From Nitrosopumilaceae archaeon (GTDB lineage Archaea > Thermoproteota > Nitrososphaeria > Nitrososphaerales > Nitrosopumilaceae), in assembly GCA_965208905.1 (NCBI GenBank), contig OZ242365.1, positions 928,001 through 992,000 of the forward strand: 64,000 nt of DNA, given 5' to 3'. The notes below the pieces were generated by a model. It did no database searches. It was not told the origin of the DNA and saw nothing but the letters and a program-made list of their open reading frames with translations. A program made the position numbers and the translations under genes. Shown in pieces: positions 17,644 to 47,302 of this stretch. The number at the start of each line of letters is the position of its first letter. Position 1 is the first letter of the stretch.

Positions 17644-19257
17644 GGTTCCTCCCGCAAAGTCGGGTGTTGGTTGATGTGTGTTAGATGATGTTAAATACAC
17701 CATTGAACCGTACTGTATAGTGTCATCAGTAAAAAATAGCAGGGCAGTAACACGTCCATACGCAAAAAATTTGGATATGTGGCATGTGTTTGGGCATGTC
17801 AGGAAGGTGGCAGAAGTGGCGTACATTATAGCAAATAACACGGGGAAGGATACCTATGGTGTTAATGCATTGATGTATAGTACAATGCGCGATCCTGACC
17901 CCAAAGTACGTTCATCCATAACGCAGACCGCCATACGGGACGGGGTTGCCGCCCATAAAACGTACAATACGAAGACTGCGCAGGGCATGAAGGTGTCTGA
18001 GCCCGTCTTTCGTAATCCGGTTGTAAAGTTGAAAAACCAAGATTGGAGGCTGAATCCGATAGCGGGTGGATATATGGCTGTTGCAAATGTTGGCTCATCA
18101 AAATATCCACATATGATAGCAATTCCCGTCTCTTCAGATGTGGTACGCAGAATAGGACAAAATGAACTAGGTGAGTTGTGGATCACGCCAACCATATATA
18201 CGATAACATATTACAACAAAGTGCCCAAGGTTGAAAAACCCCACCCATACGGCAAGTCGGAGATTATTGAACTACTTACGGATGTGGGGTATGTGGGCGG
18301 CACACCAAAAGATGTGATTGGCGTTGATATTAATGAAAAGAACATCACCGTAGGTGATAAAAACACGATGGTACGGTTTGATCTATCTAATACCATACAG
18401 GCCATTGAGGAGGCAAAGACTGAGGATGCAAACAATACGTATACACGTATACATGATAATATCACATATGCGGCACGTACCGGAAGGCGCGTTGTACACA
18501 AGAAAGAGGAGGAGCGCAGAGAAAGGCAACAAGTCACACATGGCGGTCCCAAACTATATGGCAAACTCAAACGCAGATACAAGAAACTCAAGAGGGAGGG
18601 CAAACACAAGAAGGCCGCCGAGATAAAGTGGCAGATGAATAAATGCATATTAAACATACAGCATAACCACACAAAGTCAAAAAAGAATGATAAAAAACAC
18701 AGGGTGACTAAAGCCATGCGCCGCCACGAACACGTGCTGAACGTAATAGCATTATGTATAGCACAGTGGGCCGCACAATCCGGGTGTTTGGTTATGTTGG
18801 AGGATTTAACCCATATATCGTATAATTGGCAGAAGGGGGGAAAGTTTGGACGCAGCTTGCGTCGCAGATTATATTCTGCCATGATGCGAAAGGCATCGAA
18901 TTTAATTTATGAAAAGTCCCAATTTTTGGGAGTGGAGGCACTACATATGCGTCCACACAACACATCCAAGTTGTGTGCTGGATGTAGAACCCTACTAACT
19001 GGAACTTATCATAAAAAAGACTGCACCCACTGCCGTATGGTTGGCGTAGACCGAGACGTCAACGCAGTGGAGAACATACGGCGAACAAGCGCCGTATCCC
19101 GGTATGGTCGTAAGGTTTCGACCAGTCTGGGCGAAGTCCGTCGTGGTGTGGATGTAATACTCGATCCCACCCCACTCATACAGGGTTGCTGGAGCAACTG
19201 GGCCGACAGACTATCCCGCGTGGTGATGTGACATCACCCGACTTTGCGGGAGGAACC
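17644..19257 (+). mobile_element. TIR-bounded non-autonomous element 1 carrying a tnpB-like gene (1614 bp)
   Basis: Perfect 23-bp inverted repeats GGTTCCTCCCGCAAAGTCGGGTG at 17644-17666 and 19235-19257 tightly enclosing one ORF; no convincing target duplication. Confidence 0.75.
17678..19231 (+). CDS. tnpB: TnpB/Cas12f-like RNA-guided nuclease (likely start GTG 17720)
   Basis: RuvC-I GVDIN, RuvC-II MLEDL, TSKLCxxC..CxxC zinc finger, RuvC-III DRDVNA. Confidence 0.85.
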   Translation: MLDDVKYTIEPYCIVSSVKNSRAVTRPYAKNLDMWHVFGHVRKVAEVAYIIANNTGKDTYGVNALMYSTMRDPDPKVRSSITQTAIRDGVAAHKTYNTKTAQGMKVSEPVFRNPVVKLKNQDWRLNPIAGGYMAVANVGSSKYPHMIAIPVSSDVVRRIGQNELGELWITPTIYTITYYNKVPKVEKPHPYGKSEIIELLTDVGYVGGTPKDVIGVDINEKNITVGDKNTMVRFDLSNTIQAIEEAKTEDANNTYTRIHDNITYAARTGRRVVHKKEEERRERQQVTHGGPKLYGKLKRRYKKLKREGKHKKAAEIKWQMNKCILNIQHNHTKSKKNDKKHRVTKAMRRHEHVLNVIALCIAQWAAQSGCLVMLEDLTHISYNWQKGGKFGRSLRRRLYSAMMRKASNLIYEKSQFLGVEALHMRPHNTSKLCAGCRTLLTGTYHKKDCTHCRMVGVDRDVNAVENIRRTSAVSRYGRKVSTSLGEVRRGVDVILDPTPLIQGCWSNWADRLSRVVM

Positions 19258-19310
19258 CGTCCGCTCTGAATAAACAAGAGCGTTCACACCGCCTGACCTT
19301 GTGCTGCCCA

Positions 19311-19387
19311 ACACACCCGCAACCAGTATGCGCTTGTAATCCGATGATTCTTCAGACTCAATTACAGGCATACCGCTCACAGCGTGC
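19311..19387 (-). ncRNA. candidate structured small RNA (long G-U-rich hairpin)
   Basis: About 27-bp imperfect stem that pairs well only on the minus strand; TTTATTAA at 19410-19403 upstream. Confidence 0.4.
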
Positions 19388-19464
19388 TTTAATTATGGAT
19401 GCTTAATAAAGTCACCGTATATGGAATATCTGGTAGTTTTAGTCAAGATAGTGTGCCGTATAAT

Positions 19465-20604
19465 TTAGACCGCCTTCTCTAGACGAATGTGTATTTTCTT
19501 TGACTTTCCGTGTTGTATAATTCGTGTACCATACCCATGCTTCTGTAGGTATGCCTCTAGTATTAGTGCCCAAGATAGGGCATGACCGTTGTTATCTTTG
19601 GACTTTAAGTGTATGGTGCCATTACTTGGGTCTAATTTTGCTATACCATAACCCATTATCTTTAAAGTTGTTGAAGCTAACTCGACTAGATCATTGAGCG
19701 TTCGTGAATATATGGGAACACCACCAAACTCTAAGAGATCTGCCAATGCAGGGATCTTAGCTGCCATTGCAGCCTGCAATGAAACAGATAAGCTGGACTC
19801 TTTTAGTATGGATATGGCTGTATAGGCATCTTTGGACTCGGTACTGTTTAAATCTAATAGTTCATCTGCCTGTATGCTATTATCCCAGAGGTATTTGAAG
19901 AGCGCAGATAAATTATGCATTATACCATCTGCCATAGTTAACACCTCTCCGCCCCCAAATTGGTTCAGTATCAGTATGTTGCCACCATCGGCTACAACAT
20001 AGTTGTAATCATGTGTGATTGTACGAATCTGAGCACCACCCGGGAGTATGCCGTCCCCCTCGGCATTCGCCTCTATTAATGGAAGTATTATACGCACCAA
20101 AACCCCGCGACGATTTGCAGCAACTATCTGTTTACGACTCTCAGTTATATAGCTACGTTGACTTACTATCAGGTCGATACTATGACTTGCACCATCGATT
20201 ATTCTGTGCAACTCTGAGATTATGTTTCCTGTAGACAACTGTTGATATCTCCTCTCTTCAACTCCGCGGCTCTTCCGACATTCATCATTGACAGTCTTTA
20301 AACTGGACACCAGCGAGTTCATGGCATTGACACGGTTTATCTGATCTTGTATTGTAGAGTCAAAGGCTTCCTCCGGAGCCACTGCAGCACACATTATCGG
20401 CTTTGTATCTGATGTGGTGGCAAGATTCTTCTTGCGAAGTTTCTCTAATGTAGAGTACACCTTTGTGCGCGGAATCTCTGAATAATATGATAGCTCTGCT
20501 GCTGATACGGGCCCCTTTGATATCATTGTAAAATATGCCCGGGCCTCATACTGACTAAGGCCGAACTCTTCTAGACTAACCGTCAATGATTTATCCATAC
20601 TCAT
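19465..20604 (-). CDS. TrmB family transcriptional regulator
   Basis: FGLSQYEARAY...IPRTKVY wHTH signature. Confidence 0.9.
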   Translation of the reverse strand: MSMDKSLTVSLEEFGLSQYEARAYFTMISKGPVSAAELSYYSEIPRTKVYSTLEKLRKKNLATTSDTKPIMCAAVAPEEAFDSTIQDQINRVNAMNSLVSSLKTVNDECRKSRGVEERRYQQLSTGNIISELHRIIDGASHSIDLIVSQRSYITESRKQIVAANRRGVLVRIILPLIEANAEGDGILPGGAQIRTITHDYNYVVADGGNILILNQFGGGEVLTMADGIMHNLSALFKYLWDNSIQADELLDLNSTESKDAYTAISILKESSLSVSLQAAMAAKIPALADLLEFGGVPIYSRTLNDLVELASTTLKIMGYGIAKLDPSNGTIHLKSKDNNGHALSWALILEAYLQKHGYGTRIIQHGKSKKIHIRLEKAV

Positions 20605-20759
20605 TATTCACTTCACCACAAAGATAACTGTTAAACCACAACAGCTAAATTTCTTAACATATAGCTCAAATTGCTTGTACCAAACCACACTGTCACCATG
20701 GTTAATGATTGCGCAGTTACTCTGTTTTGATATATGTTGTATTGTACAATTATGTATAA

Positions 20760-21239
20760 TTGAGCGTTATACAACAAGTTGCACTAGCACCACGACTGAA
20801 CTACTCTAAGCAACTATTACGTGATGTCATGGATACACTACAGAGGTGTGGTATTGATGCAGAGAAGGATGATGATACAAAATACTCTCTGATAAAGCGC
20901 CAGTACACCATAATGTTTTGTATGGAGGCCCTCGCCAAGGTTAGACAAGCTTTAGAGAGCATTCGTGGCATGGACCAAATACCAAACAATGTGCCACCAA
21001 CCATTGGTGTATTACGGGCAGTGGGAGTCCAGCTCTCCTCTGAGTTTCCCCATTGTAATAATACGCTGTGTGAGCTGGCAGTGCACTTGGGAAGTGTATC
21101 TATGGATTCTGCACTATTGAGACGTATTGACATAAAGTATTCGGGAACTAGATCTGAAGATATGATAAAGAAGTCTCGTATGATGGCAGAGAAGAAGATT
21201 AGAAAGTTATATCCTAACTTTACCACAATACCACAATGA
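20760..21239 (+). CDS. cdvB: divergent CdvB/ESCRT-III (Snf7-like) paralog
   Basis: Helical AL.KV...LE.I....Q....V.P.IGVL pattern; in operon with Vps4-type ATPase. Confidence 0.65.
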   Translation: MSVIQQVALAPRLNYSKQLLRDVMDTLQRCGIDAEKDDDTKYSLIKRQYTIMFCMEALAKVRQALESIRGMDQIPNNVPPTIGVLRAVGVQLSSEFPHCNNTLCELAVHLGSVSMDSALLRRIDIKYSGTRSEDMIKKSRMMAEKKIRKLYPNFTTIPQ

Positions 21240-21673
21240 CACAATTTACAGACTTACGTACTGATGCTGAGCGGATACGCCAACTTCGATTGACAATAAA
21301 CTCGTTGAACATAAACCCTTCTGTCATAAGAAAGATGTCTCACACTGAACTAGACGACGTATCTGATGTACTGCTTCATTTAGAATCACTACTGCTAAAG
21401 TATCAGAGTCAAAGAGAGATGCTGCACCTTCTAGAGAGTTTAGGTGATATAATGCATGAGGCTGCTGACGGTATAGTATCTGTCAATACTGAATTAAATG
21501 ATATAATGGTGAACAATGAGATATCATGCAAGCGCATACAAGAAGTACAGCTCTCCATATGCGGCGAATCAATAAAAAACATTCTTGATGAGAAAAGTTC
21601 AAAAAACTTTACCAAAAGTGAAAAGAAAGTTGACAATGTAAATTATAACCTACAAGATATAACAGAATGGTAA
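21236..21673 (+). CDS. hypothetical coiled-coil protein in cdv operon
   Basis: ATGA overlap with upstream gene and overlap with cdvC. Confidence 0.7.
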   Translation: MTQFTDLRTDAERIRQLRLTINSLNINPSVIRKMSHTELDDVSDVLLHLESLLLKYQSQREMLHLLESLGDIMHEAADGIVSVNTELNDIMVNNEISCKRIQEVQLSICGESIKNILDEKSSKNFTKSEKKVDNVNYNLQDITEW

Positions 21674-22866
21674 TGAGCACTGTTCCTCAAGAATTAGAGA
21701 ATAATGCTAGTAGATATGCCTCTGATGCTATACGATTTGACTCTCAGGGTGCTAGAGGAATGGCAGTCGCCAACTACCAAAAAGCCATAGCATCACTGGC
21801 AAAATTGATAGAGTTGTATCCTGGCAGTAAGCTGAATCCAATATACAAAGATAGGTGCCAGTCATACTACAATAGAATCACACTACTCCAAAACAACAGA
21901 AAACTCGAACCGGCTGTGGACCCCGGCTCTAGTGCGCAGGATCAAAGAACATCTATACAGCGGCAAGAAGAAGCGAATAACTTTGAAGAGCTGATAATGC
22001 ACGAAAAGCCCAACATTACTTGGGCCGAGGTGATTGGACTTGAAGATGCCAAGAGTGCCCTACGTGAATCTATAATATATCCGACCAAAAGACCGGATCT
22101 ATTTCCACTAGGTTGGCCGAAAGGAATGTTGTTGTATGGCCCACCTGGAACTGGCAAGACCATGCTAGCTGCCGCCACCGCCAGTGAGATGGATGGATAC
22201 TTCATAAACGTAGATGCCTCGGCTATGATGAGTAAGTGGCTTGGTGAGGCTGAGAAGAATGTCTCAAAGATATTCAGAATAGCTCGTAAACACGCTGAAC
22301 AGGAGAATAAACCTGTGATATTGTTTGTCGATGAGGTGGACTCTCTTTTGGGTTCTCGAAGCAGTGAAGTGGGCGGTGAGGTGCGCACAAAGAACCAGTT
22401 TCTAACTGAGATGGATGGTGTAAATGGTAAAGGCCACGACCTAATGCTGTACGTTATAGGCGCCACCAACAAGCCTTGGACATTGGATTGGCCATTCTTG
22501 CGACGATTCCAAAAGAGAATATACGTGGCTCTACCAGACTTGCAAGCACGAGTATCTCTGTTTAGGCAATATACAGAAGACTTGCATACGGACTCTTCCA
22601 TTCGCCCTGAGGAACTATCTCGTCTCTTTGATGGGTATAGCGCTAGTGATATACGTGATGTATGTCAGGGCGCCCAGCTAAAGACTGTGCATGAACTATT
22701 CGAGTCACCTGATTATAGGGATCCTGTGGAGGGTGAAGATCTACAGAAGCCCCGGAATTTGACTCTTGATGACTTTCATCAAATAGCATCCCGCCGCAAA
22801 CCTAGTGTCTCTCAAGAGATGGTCATGGCGCATCATCGATGGAGCGAGGAGTTCCGCGCCCTGTAG
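21667..22866 (+). CDS. cdvC: Vps4-like AAA ATPase CdvC
   Basis: N-terminal MIT domain, GPPGTGKT, SKWLGE, DEVD, GATNKPW..D, RRFQKRIY. Confidence 0.92.
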   Translation: MVMSTVPQELENNASRYASDAIRFDSQGARGMAVANYQKAIASLAKLIELYPGSKLNPIYKDRCQSYYNRITLLQNNRKLEPAVDPGSSAQDQRTSIQRQEEANNFEELIMHEKPNITWAEVIGLEDAKSALRESIIYPTKRPDLFPLGWPKGMLLYGPPGTGKTMLAAATASEMDGYFINVDASAMMSKWLGEAEKNVSKIFRIARKHAEQENKPVILFVDEVDSLLGSRSSEVGGEVRTKNQFLTEMDGVNGKGHDLMLYVIGATNKPWTLDWPFLRRFQKRIYVALPDLQARVSLFRQYTEDLHTDSSIRPEELSRLFDGYSASDIRDVCQGAQLKTVHELFESPDYRDPVEGEDLQKPRNLTLDDFHQIASRRKPSVSQEMVMAHHRWSEEFRAL

Positions 22867-22883
22867 CTGCAAAAAGATTCTTC

Positions 22884-23937
22884 TGTTGTACAAAAATTAG
22901 GTTCGACTAAGTTCTGGTTGCAAGCAAAGGAATACTTCACGCTTTATCGATCACGAAAAAAGATGAAAATGACAAAGTTGACGGATAAACAGATACGATA
23001 CGCCATAAGGGAACGTGGTAAGGGTAAGACGCTTGTTGACATAGCAGACGATATAGGTGTAACACCACAACATGTAGGACGACTATGTGCAGAGTTTACA
23101 AGAACAGGACAGATACACGTGCAACAAAAGCCAGGCCGGCCAGTCCACCCACCACCGTCGGCAGAGGAGGTCCGAACCGTGTTGAACAAACATGCAGAGG
23201 AAGATGTAGGCATCATACGAACAGCAAGGAGGGTCAGAAAAGACAATCCGAATATAAGCTATGCCACCATATATCGCATAATGAAAGAACATGGACTAGT
23301 CACATCATCTGTAGCAAAATCCAAAAAAAGAAAATACGTTAGGTATGAGCGCAAATATTCCAATGCCATGTGGCATGTTGACTGGCATATAATGAAGGAT
23401 CAACGCTTTGCAGGGCTCAACCTAGTCACATTTCTAGATGATTCATCAAGGTGTATAACGGGTGCTGCCCTATTCAAGGAAGCCACCTCAGAAAACGTAG
23501 TAGATGTGCTGCGACAAGCAATAGCGAGATTTGGTACACCGGCCACTATCCTCTCAGATAATGGTAGGTGTTTTAACGGGGGAAGAAGGCATGACGATTC
23601 ACCTAAGGGCAAATGGAAGCCTACTGCGTTTGAGGCCGAGTTGTTAGACCGTGGAATCGAGATGATAAACTCACGACCGTATCATCCGCAGACAAACGGC
23701 AAACTGGAACGCTTTCACGGTAGTATAGAGACAGAGATACATCATTATGATAGTCTATCTTCCTATATAGAGTACTATAATGAGCGCAGACTTCACTTTT
23801 CGTTGGATATTGACAACTACGAGACACCACTACAGGCATTTTCTGTCAGAAAGGCCACAAAAGCGATCAGAGAAAAGGACCCAAAATGGATGGAGAGAGA
23901 TACCGATGATTAACGAACATAATTTTCATATAAAACA
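22884..23937 (+). mobile_element. IS481-family insertion sequence
   Basis: TGT...ACA imperfect terminal inverted repeats; 17-bp flanking direct repeats (22867-22883, 23938-23954). Confidence 0.85.
22963..23913 (+). CDS. IS481-family DDE transposase (integrase core)
   Basis: N-terminal HTH, WHVD, LDDSSR, ILSDNG, PYHPQTNGKLERF motifs. Confidence 0.92.
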   Translation: MKMTKLTDKQIRYAIRERGKGKTLVDIADDIGVTPQHVGRLCAEFTRTGQIHVQQKPGRPVHPPPSAEEVRTVLNKHAEEDVGIIRTARRVRKDNPNISYATIYRIMKEHGLVTSSVAKSKKRKYVRYERKYSNAMWHVDWHIMKDQRFAGLNLVTFLDDSSRCITGAALFKEATSENVVDVLRQAIARFGTPATILSDNGRCFNGGRRHDDSPKGKWKPTAFEAELLDRGIEMINSRPYHPQTNGKLERFHGSIETEIHHYDSLSSYIEYYNERRLHFSLDIDNYETPLQAFSVRKATKAIREKDPKWMERDTDD

Positions 23938-23989
23938 CTGCAAAAAGATTCTGCAAAGACTTTTAAATATACATTGCATTGATTTCCTA

Positions 23990-25294
23990 ATGAATAAATT
24001 TACTTTACCAGTAATTGTAGCTGGACTGGCAATTATGTTCGTATCGACTCCTACTGTTCTAGCACAGGAGATGATGAGCAATGAGATGCCAAGCTTTATT
24101 CTTACAATTGCATGTACTGTATATGGTGACACCACAGATGATATTATATCGTTGGTCTTTGGCCTTGATGGCTCAGACTGTACTATATCGACTGAGCATG
24201 TGGAGGTTTTGGAACATGATCCGCCAACAATAGTAACTATGGTTGAGGGGTCACTACTCCCTGACTGTCAAGTTACTGATGACTGCTTTGACCCCAATAC
24301 TGTCACAATAAGTCCGGGCGATACAGTTGCGTGGGTTAATGAAGACTCTCTAATTCACACAGTCACCGCTCTTAATCCACATCCTGATGGTGTACTGGAC
24401 AGCTTTGTCAATCCAGGAGATCAGTTTGAGTTTACATTTGATACTCCCGGAGAGTATCCCTACCACTGTGTTCTTCACCCATGGGCTGTTGGAAAAGTAA
24501 TTGTGGAATCTTCTGAATCAATTGATGGTGAAAACCGTCATGCAGAGGTAATGGATGAAATAATTGCGCAGTATGATGTCCGCGGCGATGCCATACTCAA
24601 GTATATCAATGAGTCTGTAGGCTCATTATACACAGATGTTTCGGTATTTGTTGTAGACAAAGAGAGTCTGACTCTTGTGGCTCATAGTACTGCTCCTCAA
24701 TATATCGGCATAGATGCAAATGCGGTGCTTAATCAAGCTGCAATTCCTGCAGAATATTTAATTGAACTATTACAGACACAAACTGATGGTGTCTGGATTA
24801 GCTATCCGGTACCGGATCCAACCGACCCAACCAATGTACTGTTCTATGATCGTGGCTGGTTCAAATCCTCTGGCGACTACTACTTTGCCGTAAGAACCTC
24901 ATTAACTAATGAATCCACTGTTCAAAATGTAGTTAATGAACTTGTTCGAGTGCATGCACTGTATCCAGCTGATACAATAAACAATATCAACACGCGTACG
25001 ACAGGGGATCCTAATTACCCGTTCATTCTGAGCCCTGCAGATTATACAGTTCTGGCACATGGTGCAAACCCTGATAGAGTGGGCGCAACTTCCATTGCCC
25101 TAACTGATGCCGACCGACCTGTTGACGAGATTATCGCTGATCTGCAAAACAATGATGGTACGTGGGTAGAATACACATTTGCACATCCCACTACTGGTAT
25201 GGATCAGAGTAAGCGCACATGGCTTGTATTGTATGACGACCTCATATTCGGTGCAGGCTATTACATAGATGATAACTCTATGACATCTCCATAG
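23990..25294 (+). CDS. secreted cupredoxin fused to two Cache domains
   Basis: Signal peptide from MNKFTL (23990); HTVT and YHCVLHPW copper site; then VAH/LAHGANP..VG and W..Y...P.T....K Cache repeats. Confidence 0.85.
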   Translation: MNKFTLPVIVAGLAIMFVSTPTVLAQEMMSNEMPSFILTIACTVYGDTTDDIISLVFGLDGSDCTISTEHVEVLEHDPPTIVTMVEGSLLPDCQVTDDCFDPNTVTISPGDTVAWVNEDSLIHTVTALNPHPDGVLDSFVNPGDQFEFTFDTPGEYPYHCVLHPWAVGKVIVESSESIDGENRHAEVMDEIIAQYDVRGDAILKYINESVGSLYTDVSVFVVDKESLTLVAHSTAPQYIGIDANAVLNQAAIPAEYLIELLQTQTDGVWISYPVPDPTDPTNVLFYDRGWFKSSGDYYFAVRTSLTNESTVQNVVNELVRVHALYPADTINNINTRTTGDPNYPFILSPADYTVLAHGANPDRVGATSIALTDADRPVDEIIADLQNNDGTWVEYTFAHPTTGMDQSKRTWLVLYDDLIFGAGYYIDDNSMTSP

Positions 25295-25340
25295 TGCATA
25301 AAAATATAGATTTTTATTAATTTTAACCGGTATTCCAGAT

Positions 25341-36352: not shown

Positions 36353-36356
36353 GTGT

Positions 36357-38529: not shown

Positions 38530-38590
38530 TATGCTACATTACTTGTGACGATTAAAATTGTTGCTGATATGTATATTGTTTTGCTAATAG

Positions 38591-39151: not shown

Positions 39152-39197
39152 ACCTGGATGTAATGGTTTTTAAACGGGCTATAGAATAAATCGGTAC

Positions 39198-39662: not shown

Positions 39663-39665
39663 TGA

Positions 39666-40175: not shown

Positions 40176-41932
40176 TGTGCTCTATAATTGGATATGTGGG
40201 TAAATCTAATGCTGCACCCATTTTGGTCAAGTCACTACACAGGATGGAGTACAGGGGATATGACAGCGTGGGTGTCGCCACACATGATAATGACTCAATA
40301 TGTATGCGCAAGGGAACTGGCCGCGTACAAGAGGTAAACGACCAAAAGGGTTTGGATGCGCTCTCTGGTGTTACTGGACTGGGACATACCCGTTGGGCTA
40401 CCCATGGTGCCGTAACTGATATCAATGCTCATCCTCACATGAGTAGCTCTGGAGATGTGGCCATCGTACATAATGGCGTTGTAGAGAATCATGAGACATT
40501 ACGTGACAGATTAAAAGAAGATGGCTATACATTTGCAAGCGAAACAGATAGCGAGGTTATAGCCAATCTATTACAGTATCACAAGGATAGAACCGGAGAT
40601 ATCAAAGAGTCACTAATCAATACCATACAGGATATACAAGGCCATTATGCGTTTATAGCGATGTTTGATGATGGCGCTATGGTATCTGCACGATACGGCG
40701 AGCCACTGATAGTGGGCATGGCAGAGAATGGTATCTTTCTGTCTAGTGATGTACTAGGATTCATAGAGCATACCGACGAGGCCATATATCTGGAGAGTGG
40801 CATGTGCTGTATAATACAGAATAACGATGTGCAGATTATGGACTATGCGGGGAATGTTATAAAGCATCGTACCACTACAGTATCAAAGGAGTTTGGCGAT
40901 ACACGCATGGGCGAATACGCCAATTACACACTAAAAGAGATACACGAGCAGCCAAATGCCATACTACGCGCCGGCATGAATTCCCACAAACAGATGGAGC
41001 AAGTATCTGATATGATACGGTCTGCAGGTTTTGCATATGCTACAGGTAGCGGTACTAGTTATAATGCCGCCTTGATAGGCCAAAAGATACTAAGACGGTC
41101 TGCCGGCATACGACTTGAGGTTATACTGTCCAGTGAAATGTCTGCAGAGTCTGATATGCTGCGGTCCGGCGATGTCCTCCTTGCAATATCCCAGAGTGGT
41201 GAGAGCGCCGATGTCTTGGATGCGGTACGCATAGCCAAAAAGGCAGGCTGTGTAATTGTATGTATGGTGAACTCTGTAAACTCATCACTGGCAAAAATAT
41301 CTGATGTGATACTCTTGATGGACTGTGGTCAGGAGATTGGGGTGGCCGCCACAAAGAGTTTCATGGCACAGTGTGGCTTGTTGTTACGTCTAGTCGATAC
41401 ACTGACTGATGGTGCGGGAATTGATCATAATAAAATATCCAATGCAATATCTGATGTAATATCTAACTCTGATATGATCCGTGATGTGGCGTATACACTT
41501 GGTGATACCAAGGATGTCTATGTTTTAGGGCGGGGCATACACCATTCGGTGGCACTTGAGGCCGCCCTGAAGATAAAAGAGTTGACGTATATTCATGCTG
41601 AGGGACTGAACGGTGGCGAGATGAAGCATGGCCCCCTAGCATTGATAGACAAAAGCAGTGTTGTAATCGTAATGAACCCACATGATGATACCTACAATGA
41701 TATGCTGCTTGGCGCCCGTGAGGTGCAGGCTAGAGGCGGTACCATAATAGGAGTATCTGATAAGAGTAGTGATGTATATGACCACTGGATTGGCATACCA
41801 TCTGGTGATGGTGTTACATATTCACTTACAGAGGTTGTGGTCTCCCAACTACTTGCGTATTATGCCGCCCTGGCCCGGGATATCAACCCGGACTATCCTA
41901 GAAACCTGGCAAAGTCAGTCACGGTCAAGTAG
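40175..41932 (+). CDS. glmS: glutamine--fructose-6-phosphate aminotransferase
   Basis: N-terminal Cys, EYRGYDS, GHTRWATHG, SQSGE, KHGP, PRNLAKSVT. Confidence 0.97.
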   Translation: MCSIIGYVGKSNAAPILVKSLHRMEYRGYDSVGVATHDNDSICMRKGTGRVQEVNDQKGLDALSGVTGLGHTRWATHGAVTDINAHPHMSSSGDVAIVHNGVVENHETLRDRLKEDGYTFASETDSEVIANLLQYHKDRTGDIKESLINTIQDIQGHYAFIAMFDDGAMVSARYGEPLIVGMAENGIFLSSDVLGFIEHTDEAIYLESGMCCIIQNNDVQIMDYAGNVIKHRTTTVSKEFGDTRMGEYANYTLKEIHEQPNAILRAGMNSHKQMEQVSDMIRSAGFAYATGSGTSYNAALIGQKILRRSAGIRLEVILSSEMSAESDMLRSGDVLLAISQSGESADVLDAVRIAKKAGCVIVCMVNSVNSSLAKISDVILLMDCGQEIGVAATKSFMAQCGLLLRLVDTLTDGAGIDHNKISNAISDVISNSDMIRDVAYTLGDTKDVYVLGRGIHHSVALEAALKIKELTYIHAEGLNGGEMKHGPLALIDKSSVVIVMNPHDDTYNDMLLGAREVQARGGTIIGVSDKSSDVYDHWIGIPSGDGVTYSLTEVVVSQLLAYYAALARDINPDYPRNLAKSVTVK

Positions 41933-42919
41933 TATGGTATCGTACTCCTCATCTATACGTGGCAGTATGTCTGTATTAGTTATGGTCTGAGCCGCATATA
42001 TGGCGCCCCCCGCGCCGGCCCCCTCTTTGGCAAAGCCCTCTGCATACGCCCGGATTCCTGCATGTCTTGAGTCTTCTAGATGTGGATTCACTGATATTAC
42101 ATTAACGCCAAATAGCTCAGCCTGCTTATGGAATGATACTTTTGGGTCATCGGCCACATATGTGGTCGTCGCCAATGTTGTGTCTTGTATGTTATGTTTC
42201 ATCTTGATAGATAAAGCTAATACGGCTAGCATCTGTGTGCCACCTGCTAATATGACATTTGATGATGATCCATTTAGCATGCCGGCCACAAACAGTATCA
42301 TGGGGTCGGCGGTCTGCGCCGCTACATTCAGATATGTGTCCATGTTTAAGCGTGACAGGGCAGCAGATACTACCCGCTCTTTTATATCTGTAGGATTGTC
42401 TGGCATTGATGAGCTCACTTTATACGGCAAGTTTAGTCCCCGTAGGAGCGCCAATGCCGTAGTGGTACCCGCAGGTATGGACTCTCCTATGATTAGATTG
42501 TCACAGAGTGATGATAATGTATGACCCACATACTCGCCTACCTGCATCGTGTATACGGCGTCCTTATACGACATGGCAGGTTTCACCTCTATGTTGTTTC
42601 CAGGTTTTATGCCTGTGTGTATGTGTGGCATCTGGGGTGACACGGCACAGCCGGCATCTATTACGATATGTGGTATATCTGCGTATGTTAGGGCTGCTCT
42701 TGTTAGTAGAGCGGGTGTGGGCTTGCCGTCGGGAGTTACCGGCAGACCTGGTATGGATATGCAGTGACCATGGTGTATCAACTCGGCATCGGCAGGTGGC
42801 GTATATATTGTATCTTGAGGGCTGGCCCCAGCAATTGTGATTCCAGGTATCTTTGCTGTATCGGTATATGATAGTACAAGTGAGAATAGGGTGCGGCCCG
42901 GCTTTAGAGTCAAGATCAT
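41915..42919 (-). CDS. cobT: archaeal nicotinate-nucleotide--dimethylbenzimidazole phosphoribosyltransferase
   Basis: IPGITIAG, TPPADAE, GESIPAGTTTA, AGGTQM, KEGAGAGG; start set at MILT (ATGA overlap). Confidence 0.88.
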   Translation of the reverse strand: MILTLKPGRTLFSLVLSYTDTAKIPGITIAGASPQDTIYTPPADAELIHHGHCISIPGLPVTPDGKPTPALLTRAALTYADIPHIVIDAGCAVSPQMPHIHTGIKPGNNIEVKPAMSYKDAVYTMQVGEYVGHTLSSLCDNLIIGESIPAGTTTALALLRGLNLPYKVSSSMPDNPTDIKERVVSAALSRLNMDTYLNVAAQTADPMILFVAGMLNGSSSNVILAGGTQMLAVLALSIKMKHNIQDTTLATTTYVADDPKVSFHKQAELFGVNVISVNPHLEDSRHAGIRAYAEGFAKEGAGAGGAIYAAQTITNTDILPRIDEEYDTILLDRD

Positions 42920-43530
42920 CCCAACAATGCAACAAACTCTTCTTCTGTGCGGGGCTGTAGTGCTAGATTGGTTGCTCTCTGTTCTTGTATGGTGCTTTTG
43001 GTGGTTCTGCCATAGTTGTGTCCTGGGTATATGGTATATGTGCCGTCTAGTTTTGATAGTCGTTGTAGTGAGTGATATAACTGCGATGCATCGCCTCCCG
43101 GCAGGTCTGTTCGCCCACAACTACCCACAAAGAGCGTGTCTCCGGTGAGAATTATCTTTTGTGTATCGTTTAGTAGAGATATACTGTCTTGTGAGTGGCC
43201 TGGCGTATGTAACACTTGTAGTTTACTGTCTCCAAAGTTTACCGTATCACCTTCGTTTATGTCTATATTGTGAGGCATACCTGAGCTGGCATGCTGTATA
43301 ATTGATATGCGTAATCGTTGGGATAATACCTGATTGCCCAGTGTATGATCAAAGTGACTATGTGTGTTGACTATATTGATTGGTTGAAGATCTTTGGCTG
43401 ATATGTAGTCTGTAATCTTGTCTAAATCCCATGACGGGTCCACTATGATGGCCTTGCTGGTGTGGCTATCATGTATCACATAAGTAAAATTTTGCATCGA
43501 ACCTACTGATATCTGCTTTATCAGTATCAT
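42916..43530 (-). CDS. MBL-fold metallo-hydrolase (glyoxalase II-like)
   Basis: THSHFDH, HTPGHS, GDTLF, YPGH; start set at MILIK. Confidence 0.9.
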   Translation of the reverse strand: MILIKQISVGSMQNFTYVIHDSHTSKAIIVDPSWDLDKITDYISAKDLQPINIVNTHSHFDHTLGNQVLSQRLRISIIQHASSGMPHNIDINEGDTVNFGDSKLQVLHTPGHSQDSISLLNDTQKIILTGDTLFVGSCGRTDLPGGDASQLYHSLQRLSKLDGTYTIYPGHNYGRTTKSTIQEQRATNLALQPRTEEEFVALLG

Positions 43531-44171
43531 TATATGATGCCCTCCTCGGCTTCGGGAGGGATTCCTATACGTTCTGTGTATAATATACCGGTTATATCTG
43601 GCCGTTTGGGAATGCCCCGTTTCATCTTGTGGAACGTCACAGTTACATCCGCATGTATGCATGCGTCGGCATGTAGACCTGTATCTGGATTCAGACCAGA
43701 TGGCACATCTACGGCCAATACAAATGCCTCTGAATTATTTACGTACTGTATGGCTGTACTGTATGGCTCTCTTATCTCTCCTGTTATACCCGTACCTAGC
43801 ATGGCATCTACTATTATGTCGTACTGTATTGTAGTATCTATACTGCCTGATATTGTTATGGATGGCATCTTTGTTAGTATGTTGTAGTTTTGTTGACACT
43901 CCGTAGTCTTTATCTTTGATGGCTCTCCCATCAGACATATGGTGACATCGGCTCCATAACCGGCCAGATGTCTTGCCATGACTAGGCCATCGCCACCGTT
44001 GTTGCCCATACCTGCTATGACAAGTATGGTTTTGGATGATATGTCATCTGTATGGCTTAGCAGTCTTTGTACGGCGGCCGCCCCGGCATTCTCCATCATC
44101 AATATTTTATGGAATCCCATTTTGTGGCCAGCATTTTCAATGTCGTACATCTGCTTTACCGATATCTCCAT
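43530..44171 (-). CDS. nnrE: NAD(P)H-hydrate epimerase (YjeF N-terminal)
   Basis: MENAG, GNNGGDG, DAMLGTG, DVPSG. Confidence 0.93.
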   Translation of the reverse strand: MEISVKQMYDIENAGHKMGFHKILMMENAGAAAVQRLLSHTDDISSKTILVIAGMGNNGGDGLVMARHLAGYGADVTICLMGEPSKIKTTECQQNYNILTKMPSITISGSIDTTIQYDIIVDAMLGTGITGEIREPYSTAIQYVNNSEAFVLAVDVPSGLNPDTGLHADACIHADVTVTFHKMKRGIPKRPDITGILYTERIGIPPEAEEGII

Positions 44172-44547
44172 GAATGTGTAGTATAATCATCCTGATAATA
44201 TCTTTTGCAAAATCGACAGCGGTTCATAATTTGTGACCTGGCACAACCCGGATAGTCCGGCCGCCATGCGAAACCCGGACCGCGCGGCACGTATTGGCCA
44301 ATCATTGATGCTTTTCCTCTTTCAATAGAATTACTTGAGACCTAAATTCCGCATTCTCTTTTTCTAAAAGATCGATTTTGCAGTATATCTTTCTTAATTA
44401 CTTTCTGAGTAATGCAGAATCTCCCATTAAATTATCTAAATTTGATACCAGCTTAACCTTTCTATCCAAATCTGTCCTTTATGTAGGCCTGAGCATATAC
44501 GAATTGGGGGCTTTAACATTAAATAATAATATCATCTACTAATATTA

Positions 44548-44667
44548 ATGCCAGATATAGATATGACCGAGTATAGGCAGATACGAGCCGAATTGGATGA
44601 GCTAAACACCAGAGTTGACGCAATCCATTCAGAAATTGATAAGATAGAACAAAAATTAGGAAGATAA
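44548..44667 (+). CDS. 39-aa coiled-coil micro-ORF (below ORF-track cutoff)
   Basis: MPDIDMTEYRQIRAELDELNTRVDAIHSEIDKIEQKLGR, clear heptad pattern, AT-rich upstream. Confidence 0.4.
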   Translation: MPDIDMTEYRQIRAELDELNTRVDAIHSEIDKIEQKLGR

Positions 44668-44847
44668 CCGATAAATTTTGTCTTCTAGTTGACCGACCAT
44701 CTCGTATAACTCTTTGATTTCATTTTTCTGCGTCTCAACCCTTCCAACAATATCACGTGCTTCTTCACTCAGCATGACCAATCTATCTTCCCCCGCACGA
44801 ATACGACGATATATGTTGGCAAGTTCTTCTCGCAGTTCTTCAAACAA
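44656..44847 (-). CDS. 63-aa coiled-coil hypothetical protein
   Basis: Heptad pattern; convergent with the micro-ORF. Confidence 0.5.
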   Translation of the reverse strand: MFEELREELANIYRRIRAGEDRLVMLSEEARDIVGRVETQKNEIKELYEMVGQLEDKIYRLSS

Positions 44848-45755
44848 TTAATCCATACTATCAAATTATTCTAGGGTGGTTAAAGGGTTGGCGTGAAGTG
44901 GCTGCGCACACCATTACAAAATCAAAGATATCAACGAGATATCAGCAGAAATTGAATTCGTTTCATCTTTGGTACCACACATCTACACTTACCACATATG
45001 TAATCACCATCTTCCAGTATAGGTTCGCCCATGGTCGATAACGCGTAGTTACATGTCGGTTCTGTAGGTGTCACATGATTGTTGGTAGATGCTTTATGGC
45101 CTGCTGGCTTTTGGTTGCCAGTTGTGGATACCGTCTCTGTCGGCCCAATATCTGACTGGCATCTTTGCCGATACACGTATGCCTCTCTGCCAGGCTCGGG
45201 CCTTTGCCAGATTGCGTATGTTATTTAAAGTCCATACTGGCCAAGATGAGTAGTTTCAAAAGAATCAGGTACACCATACAAAATGACCAGATTCTGGTCA
45301 GCAACACCAATTCGCAAGAGTACATCACGCAAGACAAATGAAGTACGTAATTTATCTGATCCTCCGCGTTTGTCCGAGAACCGGTGTCTTGCCAGTGGTG
45401 GTTATACCAGTCGAGCCGGCCACTATGATGTGTACCTTGTCACCTGTCATCTTAATTGTGATGCAGTTGCCCTTTATAGAGACGGTCTGGGCGCAGGCCA
45501 GCCTCCATAGGGTTATTGTGGTCGGAGCCTTTTCCACCTTGCCCAGCATCTCATCTGCCATTCTTTTGTTATGCGCATACCCTTACCGATCATCCACCGT
45601 GTGTATGCAATGCTGCCCATCAGCAGGTCTGAGTATGCGTATGGTCAACCCCTCTTGGAGCAGTCCATCTCATCCATCTGACTGCCCGTAGGGATCTATG
45701 ATGCCGACCCGTAGTCGGGAGGCATGCAAATTATGAAACGCTATCATGAAATCTA

Positions 45756-45960
45756 GGTTCCTACTGCAAGCACGGGGGCTCCCGCACCTACAATACATTA
45801 CACGTCACACCAGAGGACGACGGTGTATAGAGCATCTCGTTCCCCGGTCTGTGCTTGACGTTTCTCAGGGGAGCTGATGCAAGAACCCTCCACGTCCAGA
45901 CGCCCCTTAACATGGGTGCTGCCGGTATTGTCCGGCAAGTTTCGTAAGTTTAGTTGGCCA
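45756..45960 (-). ncRNA. putative omega-RNA scaffold of tnpB element 2 (5' boundary approximate)
   Basis: GACGTGGAGGG...CCCCTGAGAAACGTC stem (45896-45857) overlapping the ORF 3' end, as expected for TnpB right ends. Confidence 0.5.
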
Positions 45961-47192
45961 TGCCTAGCCCCCGGGCCAAGTTTCTTCAGCCCCACATCCT
46001 CTATGTTTGAGCCCGCATTACAGTCGGCATGATACGTGTAGCCACACTTCTTACACAAGAACCGTCTACCATCCCGGTTGTCCTTATGTGTATAACCGCA
46101 CGAGTAGCACCGTTGGCTTGTATACGCTGCAGCAACCCAAATTATTTCGCCAGTCAACTTGTACGCCAACAGTAATGCCAACAGCCCCCAGCACTGCTCC
46201 AGAATGGCCTTATTGAGACCAGATTTCTGCGCAACGTTTTTGCCGGGTTTTTCTTCCGTACCCTTGGCGGACTTTGCCATGTTTTGTATAGGAAGTTTCT
46301 CAAAGGCGGCATGTGTGGTGCTGTCCGATATAACGCGTGATATTTTATGCGCGGTGGTCTTTCGAATATTTGCAGCTTTGCGTTTGTTCTTGGCAGCCCT
46401 CTTGGCAGCTTTGGCCCACCGTCGGGAGCCGGGCTTACGATTTACACAGTCGGGTTTCTGCCTGCGTGATGCTATCTTTTGTGCCTTAGAGGCTGTTTTT
46501 TCGGCGTTGTTCATGCGGCGTGTCATCTTTTCGGGTACCATTATTACACAGTCAGGTGTGGCCACATTACCAACATTCCGGTCTATACCAATAACAGTCT
46601 GTTCGGTCACGGTTGGCTTCTCATCGGGTATATCACAGGATATGGTAATCCTCCACCCGCCATCCGGTAGTTGAAATAGTTGTGCCGTCTTGTATCGGTA
46701 ATTCAAGACGGGAAACTCCCGCGACAGTTTAACCTCGCCCATCTTGGCTATCTTGATTGTACGTGTATCAGTGAAGCGCGCTTGACCAGTAGTGCCATCA
46801 TGCGTTATCGTCAACGGGATGGAGATGTGACCTCCATATTTCTTAAAGTGCGGTTCACCAAATTCCGCCTTAGGTTTGATGTTGACAGCCTTCAGCCTCT
46901 CTGTTTTCACATATTGGTCATAATGCCTGCCCAAGTCATGTAATATTTGGCGCGTCACCCCGGATATGGACTGACGCATCCAACGCGGACCCGAATGGCT
47001 GCGCAAGTCCGTATACCACGCGCTTATCCTACCACGCGTAGTGTTGACCCTCCCGGTTCGACGGTACTCTTCCTTGAAGGTTTCTAACAGTTTGTTATAC
47101 ACGTACCTGTCCATGCCGGCCTGTCTGGCTAACATCTCCTTCTTGAACCCTTTACGAAATCTAACGCCGAATGTGTATGTGCGTAGTACCAT
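45798..47192 (-). CDS. tnpB: TnpB RNA-guided nuclease (IS200/605 OrfB-like)
   Basis: RYVYN HTH, PHFKK, RuvC-I GIDRN, RuvC-II FEKL, KSGLNKAIL...W, YTSQRCxxC..CxxC, RuvC-III HADCNA. Confidence 0.93.
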   Translation of the reverse strand: MVLRTYTFGVRFRKGFKKEMLARQAGMDRYVYNKLLETFKEEYRRTGRVNTTRGRISAWYTDLRSHSGPRWMRQSISGVTRQILHDLGRHYDQYVKTERLKAVNIKPKAEFGEPHFKKYGGHISIPLTITHDGTTGQARFTDTRTIKIAKMGEVKLSREFPVLNYRYKTAQLFQLPDGGWRITISCDIPDEKPTVTEQTVIGIDRNVGNVATPDCVIMVPEKMTRRMNNAEKTASKAQKIASRRQKPDCVNRKPGSRRWAKAAKRAAKNKRKAANIRKTTAHKISRVISDSTTHAAFEKLPIQNMAKSAKGTEEKPGKNVAQKSGLNKAILEQCWGLLALLLAYKLTGEIIWVAAAYTSQRCYSCGYTHKDNRDGRRFLCKKCGYTYHADCNAGSNIEDVGLKKLGPGARHGQLNLRNLPDNTGSTHVKGRLDVEGSCISSPEKRQAQTGERDALYTVVLWCDV

Positions 47193-47302
47193 TAGCGTAC
47201 AGTACGGTCTACATGTTTAAAAAGATAGTTGAGATGTGATATATGGCACCCATCCTTGCGGGAGGAACCGAAATCTGAAACATTAAAAATTAGGCGTTAT
47301 AC

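What the first reader, a model, noticed from the sequence alone, without database searches (positions are those of the whole stretch)
17644..47277. Two different TnpB-like nucleases packaged in the same TIR-type element (17644-19257 and 45756-47269)
Seen: each gene is enclosed by 23-bp inverted repeats of one family. Element 1 is perfect (GGTTCCTCCCGCAAAGTCGGGTG); element 2 ends are GGTTCCTCCCGCAAGGATGGGTG and GGTTCCTACTGCAAGCACGGGGG. Element 2 has an 8-bp flanking duplication (7/8). Neither encodes a transposase, both retain the D-E-D RuvC motifs, and the two proteins look very different. Established: the canonical TnpB carriers IS200/605 (Y1) and IS607 (serine) lack TIRs and target duplications, whereas GG-terminated TIRs with 8-bp duplications typify DDE families such as IS6 (GGTTCTGTTGCAAA-like ends), IS1 and IS1595. 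Inference: a non-autonomous, DDE-mobilised cassette family that has captured TnpB at least twice, a prokaryotic parallel to Fanzors in TIR transposons. TnpB-DDE associations have been reported in broad surveys, so novelty must be checked.
Basis: partly seen in the sequence, partly recalled or inferred. Interest (0 to 1): 0.88.

Follow-up and report, generated by a model that had tools for sequence, protein, structure and literature searches.

The report
TnpB-only cassettes riding DDE transposon ends
Two unrelated RNA-guided-nuclease (TnpB) genes sit inside non-autonomous copies of one ordinary cut-or-copy insertion sequence whose own transposase survives only in sister genomes, and the DNA beside the insertions hints that the nucleases help the cassettes persist.

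Summary
Both window elements have the stated 23-bp inverted ends. Genome-wide, 12 full type A (about 1615 bp) and 8 full type B (about 1515 bp) copies plus miniature derivatives carry these ends. 15 end pairs have perfect 8-bp target duplications and 3 more match 7/8.

The missing transposase was found. Sister genomes G009 and G007 hold about 1.45-kb elements with the same ends, 8-bp duplications and one 387-aa IS6-like DDE transposase. This genome keeps only a decayed copy, 164 bp before the window.

No Y1 or serine TnpA is detectable in this complete genome, despite 77 TnpB-domain matches. A second end family (IS1595-type) and a third also package TnpB-only cassettes.

Both nucleases keep D-E-D and evolve under purifying selection (dN/dS about 0.2).

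New here: type A copies carry TTA or ATA immediately 5' of the left duplication copy in 14 of 16 left ends, against 3 of 39 ends of the autonomous element. This looks like a TAM.

Prior art (Altae-Tran 2023) already reports DDE-linked TnpBs with inverted ends and trans-mobilised solo TnpBs. This is therefore a new variant of a known kind.

The parts
17644..19257 (+). Element 1: a type A non-autonomous TnpB-only cassette, 1614 bp
   Evidence: Perfect 23-bp TIRs. It is 87.5-91.3% identical to 11 other full copies in the genome. A contig of a related strain joins 17643 to 19258, exactly at the TIR outer ends.
17644..17666 (+). Left-end TIR of element 1
17678..19231 (+). Type A tnpB-like gene, 517 aa
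   Evidence: Pfam TNB domain. D217, the E of LED, DRDVNA and CxxC..CxxC are seen in alignment A1. The A1 profile hits TnpB/Cas12f PDB chains at E about 1e-19. The AlphaFold model (pLDDT 77) matches Cas12f, TnpB and Fanzor2 over about 500 columns at E 1e-14.
19235..19257 (-). Right-end TIR of element 1, 3 nt after the stop codon. It is predicted to pair with upstream sequence in a 3'-terminal stem.
17633..17635 (+). TTA, 8 bp outside the left end: candidate TAM of type A
   Evidence: TTA or ATA stands at this position in 14 of 16 type A left ends. One more copy has it one base further out, beside a 9-bp duplication, and one has CTA.
45756..47269 (-). Element 2: a type B non-autonomous TnpB-only cassette, 1514 bp
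   Evidence: TIRs. It is 88.6-95.0% identical to 7 other full copies.
45756..45778 (+). Right-end (tnpB 3' side) TIR of element 2, the diverged variant
   Evidence: The same variant stands at the right end of the other type B copies.
45798..47192 (-). Type B tnpB gene, 464 aa
   Evidence: Pfam HTH_OrfB, OrfB_IS605 and TNB domains. NF040570 scores 161.5 bits. It aligns at residues 4-402 to ISDra2 TnpB 8bf8.
47247..47269 (-). Left-end TIR of element 2. It is identical, 23 of 23, to one TIR of the intact autonomous element in G009.
45748..45755 (+). Target-site duplication copy GAAATCTA
47270..47277 (+). Target-site duplication copy GAAATCTG (7 of 8)

Best explanation
Elements 1 and 2 are non-autonomous derivatives of one insertion sequence. 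That IS has 23-bp GG-terminated inverted ends, makes 8-bp target duplications, and encodes an IS6-like DDE transposase of 387 aa with an N-terminal zinc ribbon. In the derivatives the transposase gene has been replaced by a tnpB gene, from two unrelated TnpB lineages (A and B). The cassettes cannot move by themselves. They were moved in trans by the transposase of the autonomous element. That element is high-copy in sister genome G007, intact in G009, and decayed to a pseudogene in this genome. This part is shown.

The next part is inferred. Each TnpB makes a guide RNA that runs from the 3' end of its gene through the right-end TIR into the flanking DNA. The guide is therefore the 8-bp duplication plus the following flank. 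In an unoccupied allele that target lies directly after a short TAM: TTA or ATA for type A, perhaps TTG for type B. The nuclease would then cut empty or reverted alleles, and repair from an occupied copy would restore or spread the cassette. Only insertions that happened to land behind a TAM enjoy this. That would explain why the surviving copies carry the motif on the left side only.
For: Transposon anatomy. The genome has 75 end-motif hits at up to 2 mismatches. Of the pairs listed, 15 have perfect 8-bp duplications and 3 match 7 of 8. There are 12 full type A and 8 full type B copies, plus miniature derivatives of 355, 496 and 585 bp derived from A or B and one of 485 bp that keeps transposase fragments.

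Autonomous partner. G009 holds L013 5003-6452 (duplication AGAATCCA) and L014 1230-2671 (duplication CCAATTTG). Each has a single 387-388-aa ORF matching PF13610 and rve. Of G007's 41 exact end-motif hits, the 39 ends classified belong to this element, and most lie at contig breaks. This genome's copy, 926302-927837, carries 3 TGA and 2 TAG stops. Its two TIRs match the type B left end 23 of 23 and the type A TIR 22 of 23.

Boundary. In runs X5 and X6 one contig joins window 17643 to 19258, with other sequence between.

No alternative transposase. PF01797 and PF00239 each give 0 matches in a 99.6%-complete one-contig genome that has 77 TNB-domain matches.

Functional nuclease genes. D-E-D and the zinc finger are kept. 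The reading frame is open in 10 of 12 type A and 6 of 8 type B copies. dN/dS is 0.22 (45 pairs) for A and 0.20 (15 pairs) for B.

TAM-like signal. TTA or ATA stands at -11..-9 from the left end in 14 of 16 type A left ends. One further copy has it one base out, beside a 9-bp duplication. The random expectation is 0.040, and 3 of 39 ends of the autonomous element in G007 have it (Fisher 1.6e-8). No mirror motif stands on the right side (1 of 12), even though element 1's two TIRs are identical. Position -9 is A in 16 of 16 type A and in 1 of 9 type B left ends (p 8e-6).

Right end. The TIR core is predicted to pair with sequence just upstream of it.
Against: No RNA data exist, and no Rfam family matches either element. 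The guide RNA, its 3' extent and any cleavage are therefore unshown.

The type B motif (TTG in 6 of 9) is only weakly separated from the autonomous element's own flank bias. TTG stands at 3 of 17 of its transposase-start ends (p 0.03), where G at -9 is seen in 10 of 17.

The control flanks come from another, more GC-rich genome. TnpB family D in IS1595-type ends shows no flank motif. Conservation along the elements is flat, with no extra-conserved 3' block.

IS6-type elements are thought to move by replicative cointegrates without excision (recalled). That removes the classical restorative-homing rationale, so reversion by slippage, or homing between genome copies or cells, would be needed. 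Ploidy and gene exchange in this organism are unknown.

Three type A copies, element 1 among them, lack matching duplications.
Confidence: 0.72

Rival explanations
1. The cassettes are DDE-mobilised as above, but TnpB is a passive or host-serving passenger that plays no part in cassette retention. On this reading the flank motif reflects target preference of the transposase or local AT-rich composition.
For: The autonomous element's flanks show a weak bias: T at -10 in 12 of 22 and 7 of 17 ends, and G at -9 in 10 of 17. Type B's TTG resembles that bias. Family D shows no motif. There is no RNA evidence.
Against: The type A motif is one-sided although element 1's two TIRs are identical. It differs between cargoes that use the same ends (A at -9 in 16 of 16 type A against 1 of 9 type B). 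It is found at 3 of 39 ends of the autonomous element. dN/dS of about 0.2 and open frames in 16 of 20 copies show that the nuclease is maintained.
Confidence: 0.17
2. The cassettes are IS200/IS605- or IS607-type elements moved by a Y1 or serine TnpA, and the 'TIRs' are merely the subterminal hairpins of such elements.
For: tnpB-only (IS1341-type) elements are the commonest home of TnpB (PMC13565253, passages). The type A flank motif often reads TTAC, the IS608 target quoted in that review.
Against: 8-bp duplications of variable sequence flank the ends. The same ends bound a DDE transposase gene. There are 0 matches to PF01797 and PF00239 in the genome. The small hairpin inside the TIR is not kept in the type B right end.
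Confidence: 0.02
3. TnpB binds the TAM (with or without a guide) and steers the DDE transposase, so that insertion itself happens right behind TAM sites. This would be a minimal CAST-like targeting.
For: The one-sided, cargo-specific motif directly abuts the duplication.
Against: No guide could pre-exist for a new site. Known TnpB and Cas12k systems act at a distance from the TAM or PAM (recalled). There is no co-encoded adaptor, and transposase and TnpB are not even in the same element.
Confidence: 0.04
4. The cassettes are moved by a different resident transposase, not by the one found with these ends in G009 and G007. Candidates are the 13 diverged IS6-like paralogues or the IS1595 copies.
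For: This genome has intact IS6-like paralogues of 417-465 aa and IS1595 transposases, but no intact cognate gene.
Against: The paralogues are only 29-34% identical to the cognate transposase. No GGTTCC ends or other exact TIRs of 11 bp or more were found around 10 of the 13. IS1595 copies use a different end, GGGAATTATATAC. Cassette copies are 5-12% diverged with no near-identical pairs, which fits an extinct mobiliser.
Confidence: 0.05

Closest known systems
DDE-associated TnpB branches (DDE-1 to DDE-6) of Altae-Tran et al. 2023, PNAS (PMC10691335; passages read)
   Same: TnpB sits inside transposons with inverted terminal repeats. The TnpB 3' end lies close to a transposon end. Solo TnpBs are flanked by the same ends as transposase-bearing copies, which is read as mobilisation in trans.
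   Different: In the text I could read, the only DDE family named is IS630. A 2026 review (PMC13565253) adds ISL2 and IS1031. IS6 and IS1595 do not occur as words in the main text; supplements are closed. There the TnpB is co-encoded with the DDE, whereas here it replaces it. Here two unalignable TnpB lineages share one end family, a second and a third end family do the same in one genome, and a cargo-specific flank motif is seen.
Fanzor-only non-autonomous TIR transposons of eukaryotes and their viruses (PMC3627910 abstract; PMC10711439 passages)
   Same: Nuclease-only cassettes with TIRs and target duplications that depend on a DDE transposase elsewhere. [quoted passage not shown]
   Different: The host here is prokaryotic. 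The 8-bp duplication has no fixed sequence, so it cannot serve as the TAM. The candidate TAM lies just outside it, and the duplication would be the first 8 nt of the guide.
IS1341 group: tnpB-only members of IS200/IS605 (review PMC13565253)
   Same: Single tnpB gene, multicopy, no transposase of its own.
   Different: IS200/IS605 elements have no TIRs and make no duplications. These cassettes have both, and the genome has no detectable Y1 transposase.
IS6/IS26 family of insertion sequences
   Same: DDE_Tnp_IS240 catalytic domain above Pfam's cut-off, best NCBIfam match IS6, GG-terminated short TIRs and 8-bp duplications.
   Different: The score is below the NCBIfam IS6 cut-off (73.6-77.1 against 125). 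The transposase is 387 aa with an IS1/IS1595-like zinc ribbon, and the element is 1.45 kb, against roughly 0.8 kb and 230-250 aa for classical members (recalled). Cointegrate chemistry is untested.
IS1595-family elements with passenger genes (family features recalled; ISfinder not on hand)
   Same: The second end family in this genome, GGGAATTATATAC with 8-bp duplications, bounds IS1595-type transposases. One copy carries a methylase-HNH passenger.
   Different: The same ends also bound TnpB-only cassettes of families D, E and H. No paper listed by my search on IS1595 and TnpB has this association in its title or in the start of its abstract as shown.

Membership tests
TnpB / OMEGA RNA-guided nuclease | RuvC-like D-E-D catalytic triad | tested here: met
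   Type A: D217 (VDIN), the E of LED, and DRDVNA in alignment A1. Type B: IDRN, FEKL and ADCNA, aligned to solved TnpB-family chains.
TnpB / OMEGA RNA-guided nuclease | Zinc-finger (TNB) insert between RuvC-II and RuvC-III | tested here: met
   PF07282 scores 28.6 bits for A and 52.3 bits for B against a cut-off of 26.3. CxxC..CxxC is seen.
TnpB / OMEGA RNA-guided nuclease | Whole-protein similarity to TnpB/Cas12f (WED, REC and RuvC) | tested here: met
   B: NF040570 scores 161.5 bits against a cut-off of 100 and aligns full-length to 8bf8. A: sequence families match only the C-terminal half. The model (pLDDT 77.4) matches Cas12f, TnpB and Fanzor2 over about 500 columns at E 1e-14, with TM of only 0.38-0.48.
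TnpB / OMEGA RNA-guided nuclease | Guide (omega/reRNA) encoded at the 3' end of the gene and the transposon right end | tested here: inconclusive
   There is no Rfam match and no RNA run. Hairpins are predicted, including a stem between the TIR core and upstream sequence. Changes among copies keep the stem only through G-U pairs.
TnpB / OMEGA RNA-guided nuclease | TAM-dependent, RNA-guided DNA cleavage | not testable with these tools
   The only support is the indirect flank motif.
IS200/IS605 (as a transposon family) | Y1 (HUH) TnpA in the element or in the genome | tested here: not met
   PF01797 gives 0 matches in the genome, while the control rings in 6 of 14 named genomes.
IS200/IS605 (as a transposon family) | No TIRs, no target duplication, asymmetric subterminal hairpins | tested here: not met
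   The elements have 23-bp TIRs and 8-bp duplications.
IS607 | Serine recombinase TnpA | tested here: not met
   PF00239 gives 0 matches in the genome.
IS6 family | IS6-type DDE transposase | tested here: inconclusive
   PF13610 scores 34.1 bits against a cut-off of 27. NCBIfam IS6 scores 73.6-77.1 bits against a cut-off of 125, and IS1 is the next best. There is no PDB relative by sequence.
IS6 family | 8-bp target duplication and short GG-terminated TIRs | tested here: met
IS6 family | Replicative cointegrate transposition | not testable with these tools
   There are only hints. A type B copy abuts the decayed IS with 8 bp between, and the pair shares an outer duplication. Element 1 lacks a duplication, and a related strain has 377 other bases at its place.
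Non-autonomous (MITE-like) derivative of an autonomous IS | Same TIRs and the same duplication length as a transposase-bearing element, with no transposase gene | tested here: met
   Element 2's left TIR is 23 of 23 identical to a G009 autonomous TIR. Both make 8-bp duplications.
Non-autonomous (MITE-like) derivative of an autonomous IS | Intact autonomous partner in the same genome | tested here: not met
   Only a copy with 5 internal stops is present. Intact copies are in G009 and G007.

The most novel reading that the evidence does not exclude
In this archaeon TnpB is a portable 'retention and drive module' that has been swapped into at least three different DDE-type end families: IS6-like, IS1595-type and a third. 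It has completely replaced dependence on TnpA. The one-sided, cargo-specific 3-nt motif directly outside the 8-bp duplication would be the natural footprint of RNA-guided cutting of empty alleles. On that reading only insertions that land behind a TAM persist. This would be the first in-genome evidence that TnpB homing or anti-loss activity works for TIR/TSD transposons in prokaryotes. It would also give a simple rule (TAM, then duplication, then flank equals target) for reading TAMs straight from genomes.
Probability: 0.45. Interest if true: 0.8.

Novelty: new variant of a known kind. Interest (0 to 1): 0.62.

Why it matters
How the very many transposase-less tnpB genes move and persist is an open question, and the textbook answer (Y1 or serine TnpA in trans) cannot apply in a genome where neither is detectable. 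Here the mobiliser can be named. The ends, duplications, miniature derivatives and a decayed partner are all visible. Several TnpB lineages use the same ends, which gives a natural experiment: same transposase, different nuclease.

If the flank motif is a TAM, it shows that RNA-guided retention or homing also pays for DDE elements, which the 2026 review regards as a weak case (PMC13565253). It would also allow TAMs to be read from insertion sites without an assay. Type A is in addition a rare, long (517 aa) and highly diverged TnpB clade: 17 representatives at E below 1e-30 among 1.84 billion. It may interest enzyme hunters.

Tried and rejected
- RNA evidence: no RNA holder was listed for the element.
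- Rfam: no family matched either element. The one hit was a chance microRNA match at E 0.28.
- Two scans of metagenome contigs, with the type A left-end pattern and with the general TIR pattern, found nothing.
- G008, the only other genus member with type A DNA, gave no usable type A left-end flanks.
- Looking for an extra-conserved 3' block as a sign of a guide-RNA gene: conservation is flat along both families.
- TIRs around transposase homologues of other genera: none were found by local alignment in 9 of 9 loci. TIRs around the 13 diverged paralogues in this genome: no exact inverted repeat of 11 bp or more in 10 of 13, and only 12-15-bp matches in the other 3. This simple search could miss short or imperfect ends.
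- The rve (IS481-like) insertion sequences were considered as mobilisers and rejected. They have other ends and duplications of about 15 bp. The one beside a GGTTCC end (808440) is simply inserted into a type B copy.
- A 1253-bp repeat family was also considered and rejected, because it has other ends.
- TnpB family D (IS1595-type ends) shows no flank motif, and family F has too few copies to judge.
- Literature searches that listed no paper reporting an IS6-TnpB or IS1595-TnpB association, or one in Thaumarchaeota, judged from titles and the starts of abstracts. The supplements of PMC10691335 (Additional Files 10 and 11) could hold such cases and were not visible.

Full report
OBSERVATION. 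Both elements are as described. Element 1 (17644-19257) has a perfect 23-bp inverted repeat and one ORF of 517 aa. Element 2 (45756-47269) has the two stated, diverged ends, one ORF of 464 aa on the minus strand, and flanks GAAATCTA and GAAATCTG. Element 1 has no matching duplication (4 of 8). The window is G000:C1:928001-992000 of a one-contig, 2.21-Mb, 99.6%-complete genome. An archaeal-model SSU rRNA scores 1444 bits there.

THE ENDS ARE TRANSPOSON ENDS. The 14-mer occurs 33 times exactly in the genome, against 0 for its reversed control, and 75 times with up to 2 mismatches. Pairing plus- and minus-strand hits gives 15 pairs with a perfect 8-bp direct repeat immediately outside the ends and 3 more with 7 of 8.

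The copies fall into two DNA families:
- Type A: 12 full copies of about 1615 bp, 87.5-91.3% identical to element 1, plus one 5'-truncated copy.
- Type B: 8 full copies of about 1515 bp, 88.6-95.0% identical to element 2, plus one copy interrupted by another IS.

Among type A, 8 of 12 have perfect duplications, one has a 9-bp duplication with one mismatch, and 3 have none; element 1 is one of those 3. Among type B, 4 of 8 are perfect, 2 match 7 of 8, one has none, and one lies in a composite. Miniature derivatives of 355, 496 and 585 bp keep the ends and mostly the 3' part of A or B; one of 485 bp keeps transposase fragments.

In public runs X5 and X6 (a related strain, 28 differences in 1244 flank bases) one 27-kb contig joins window 17643 to 19258. 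That is exactly at the outer GG..CC of element 1. There are 377 other bases in between. The boundaries are therefore the TIR ends. Together with the missing duplication, this points to an element-associated deletion or recombination in this lineage.

THE MISSING TRANSPOSASE. The exact end motif is confined to the genus: 8 of 9 other genus members have it, against 1 of 51 genomes outside the genus, and that genome also has one reversed-control hit.

In G009, two elements of 1450 and 1442 bp carry the same ends, perfect 8-bp duplications (AGAATCCA and CCAATTTG) and a single 387-388-aa ORF. One of their TIRs is identical, 23 of 23, to element 2's left TIR. The protein matches Pfam DDE_Tnp_IS240 (34.1 bits, cut-off 27) and, below its cut-off, rve. 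Its best NCBIfam model is IS6 (73.6-77.1 bits, below the 125 cut-off), followed by IS1. It has an IS1/IS1595-like zinc ribbon. I call it IS6-like, not IS6.

Of G007's 41 exact hits, the 39 ends I could classify belong to this autonomous element (17 transposase-start ends and 22 transposase-stop ends). Most sit about 60-80 bp from contig ends, the signature of a high-copy, near-identical and recently active repeat.

In this genome the only close homologue, 926302-927837, is 47-69% identical in protein and is interrupted by 3 TGA and 2 TAG stops. Its TIRs equal the type B left TIR (23 of 23) and the type A TIR (22 of 23). It abuts a type B copy with 8 bp between, and the pair shares an outer duplication TTAAACTC. 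It ends 164 bp before the window starts. The cassettes here are thus orphans of an extinct mobiliser. That fits their 5-12% divergence and the absence of near-identical copies.

NO CANONICAL PARTNER. PF01797 (Y1) and PF00239 (serine recombinase) give no match in the genome, while PF07282 (the TnpB zinc-finger domain) gives 77.

THE NUCLEASES. Type B is a standard TnpB. Type A is a rare and very diverged relative. Only 17 representatives at E below 1e-30 were found among 1.84 billion. Sequence models catch only its C-terminal half. Alignment A1, built from type A, ten relatives of its own clade and four ordinary TnpBs that one search matched at E near 1e-8, shows D217, the E of LED, DRDVNA and the CxxC pairs. 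Its profile hits TnpB and Cas12f chains at E about 1e-19. The AlphaFold model (pLDDT 77.4, pTM 0.67) matches Cas12f, TnpB and Fanzor2 over about 500 columns (E 1e-14, TM 0.38-0.48).

A and B are not alignable to each other, nor is A alignable to any other TnpB family of this genome.

Reading frames are open in 10 of 12 type A and 6 of 8 type B copies. Among the intact copies dN/dS is 0.22 (A, 45 pairs, dS 0.25) and 0.20 (B, 15 pairs, dS 0.28). The duplications are nearly undamaged: four copies carry a single mismatch each. I therefore infer that most divergence arose in active lineages under selection for a working nuclease.

A GENOME-WIDE HABIT. A second end family, GGGAATTATATAC, also makes 8-bp duplications. 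It bounds IS1595-type transposases: 1043578-1046414, with a methylase-HNH passenger, and 1770047-1772736. It equally bounds TnpB-only cassettes of families D, D2, E, E2 and H. A third end family, GGnnCTGTCAAATCTTAG, bounds family F, where 2 of 3 copies have perfect 8-bp duplications. No transposase was found for it.

A TAM-LIKE FOOTPRINT (the new point, and inferential). I oriented each copy by tnpB. The three bases just 5' of the left copy of the duplication, positions -11..-9 from the left end, read as follows:
- Type A full copies: TTA or ATA in 11 of 12. The twelfth has TTA one base further out, beside its 9-bp duplication.
- Four further type A left ends (miniatures and fragments): ATA, ATA, TTA and CTA.
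- Total for type A: 14 of 16 strict.
- Random expectation: 0.040.
- Autonomous element in G007: 3 of 39 ends (Fisher 1.6e-8).
- Mirror position on the right side of type A: 1 of 12, although element 1's two TIRs are identical.

The next base, which is the first base of the duplication, is C or T in the 12 full copies.

Type B shows TTG in 6 of 9 left ends. This is significant against random expectation, but only p 0.03 against the autonomous element's transposase-start ends, which themselves lean towards T-T-G. Position -9 separates the cargoes: A in 16 of 16 type A against 1 of 9 type B (p 8e-6).

Family E in IS1595-type ends shows G at -9 in 10 of 11 left ends against 5 of 17 right ends (p 0.002). 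Family D shows nothing.

A one-sided motif that changes with the cargo, while the transposase ends stay the same, is what a TAM would leave. In the empty allele, TAM, duplication and right flank are contiguous. A guide transcribed through the right TIR would begin with the duplication.

The right TIR of type A lies 3 nt after the stop codon. It is predicted to pair through its GC core with sequence just upstream. The substitutions seen among copies are tolerated as G-U pairs. This is weak support, and it parallels what was proposed for Fanzor TIRs (PMC10711439).

COMPARISON WITH PRINT. IS200/IS605 and IS607 lack TIRs and duplications (PMC13565253, passages), so these cassettes are not members of those transposon families, although their cargo is. 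Altae-Tran et al. 2023 (PMC10691335, passages) report the following:
- six DDE-associated TnpB branches, all with inverted terminal repeats;
- the TnpB 3' end within 250 bp of a transposon end;
- solo TnpBs with the same ends, 'mobilized by transposases in trans'.

The families named in the text I saw are IS630, plus ISL2 and IS1031 in the review. 'IS6' and 'IS1595' do not occur as words in the PNAS main text, and its supplements were closed. My six literature searches listed no paper reporting an IS6-like or IS1595 carrier, or flank-motif evidence in prokaryotes, judged from titles and the starts of abstracts. The concept is therefore known. The carriers, the replacement architecture, the multi-lineage sharing of ends and the flank footprint appear new.

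VERDICT. This is a new variant of a known kind. The DDE-in-trans mobilisation is well supported. The guide/TAM retention mechanism is a testable inference.

Noticed in passing
window 22882-23937 (G000 950882-951937); other copies genome-wide: There are two IS481-like (rve) insertion-sequence families: 14 copies of 1044 bp at 99.7-100% identity, plus one at 94%, and 7 copies of about 1056 bp. Their duplications are about 15 bp, and the transposase ORF starts at the first base of the element. One copy lies in the window and one is inserted into a type B cassette at G000 807203-808246.
   Followed up: partly
G000 1043578-1046414 (L001 3578-6414) and 1770047-1772736: These are IS1595-type elements with GGGAATTATATAC ends and 8-bp duplications. 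The first carries a DNA-methylase-HNH fusion gene as a passenger. In one search the same ends occur 65 times in the genome and also bound TnpB-only cassettes (families D, E and H).
   Followed up: partly
G000 768095-769464, 1379633-1381002, 1405835-1407204: A third TIR family, GGnnCTGTCAAATCTTAG with 8-bp duplications, encloses TnpB family F. No matching transposase was found in this genome.
   Followed up: partly
G000 18782-19906, 158389-159477, 1337792-1338889, 2095865-2096977 and nine more: There are thirteen diverged (about 70-77% DNA identity) but intact IS6-like DDE genes of 417-465 aa, some with a SWIM-like zinc finger. I could detect no TIRs around them. Homologues occur in 16 of 27 genera of the family (G000's own genus counted), also without detectable TIRs. 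They may be domesticated, or they may have short ends that I missed.
   Followed up: partly
G000 924780-927837, ending 164 bp before the window: This is a composite of a type B cassette and the decayed autonomous IS, separated by 8 bp (AGCGTTGA) and sharing an outer 8-bp duplication (TTAAACTC). The pair appears to have moved as one unit.
   Followed up: partly
G000 1267297-1268551 and about 12 other places: A 1.25-kb repeat family, 99.7-100% identical, has TGGAGTGGACCCC...GGGGTCCCCACCA ends and a 373-aa open frame that matches DDE_Tnp_IS240 only faintly (17.7 bits).
   Followed up: no
G000 872512 and 1043090: Two GGTTCC-like ends share an identical outer flank (ccccacaaatg) and a further inner sequence. 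One lies next to a Toprim-domain gene and the other next to the methylase-HNH gene. They may be the ends of a larger integrated element.
   Followed up: no
G000 1052986-1054400 (L001 12986-14400): A GGTTCC-type end is followed by a 389-aa ORF with no family match except a faint TNB-domain hit (17.7 bits). It could be a further, even more diverged cargo.
   Followed up: no
G000 1337692-1340819 and 1851328-1854455: A 3128-bp stretch is duplicated at 100% identity and includes one of the IS6-like paralogues.
   Followed up: no
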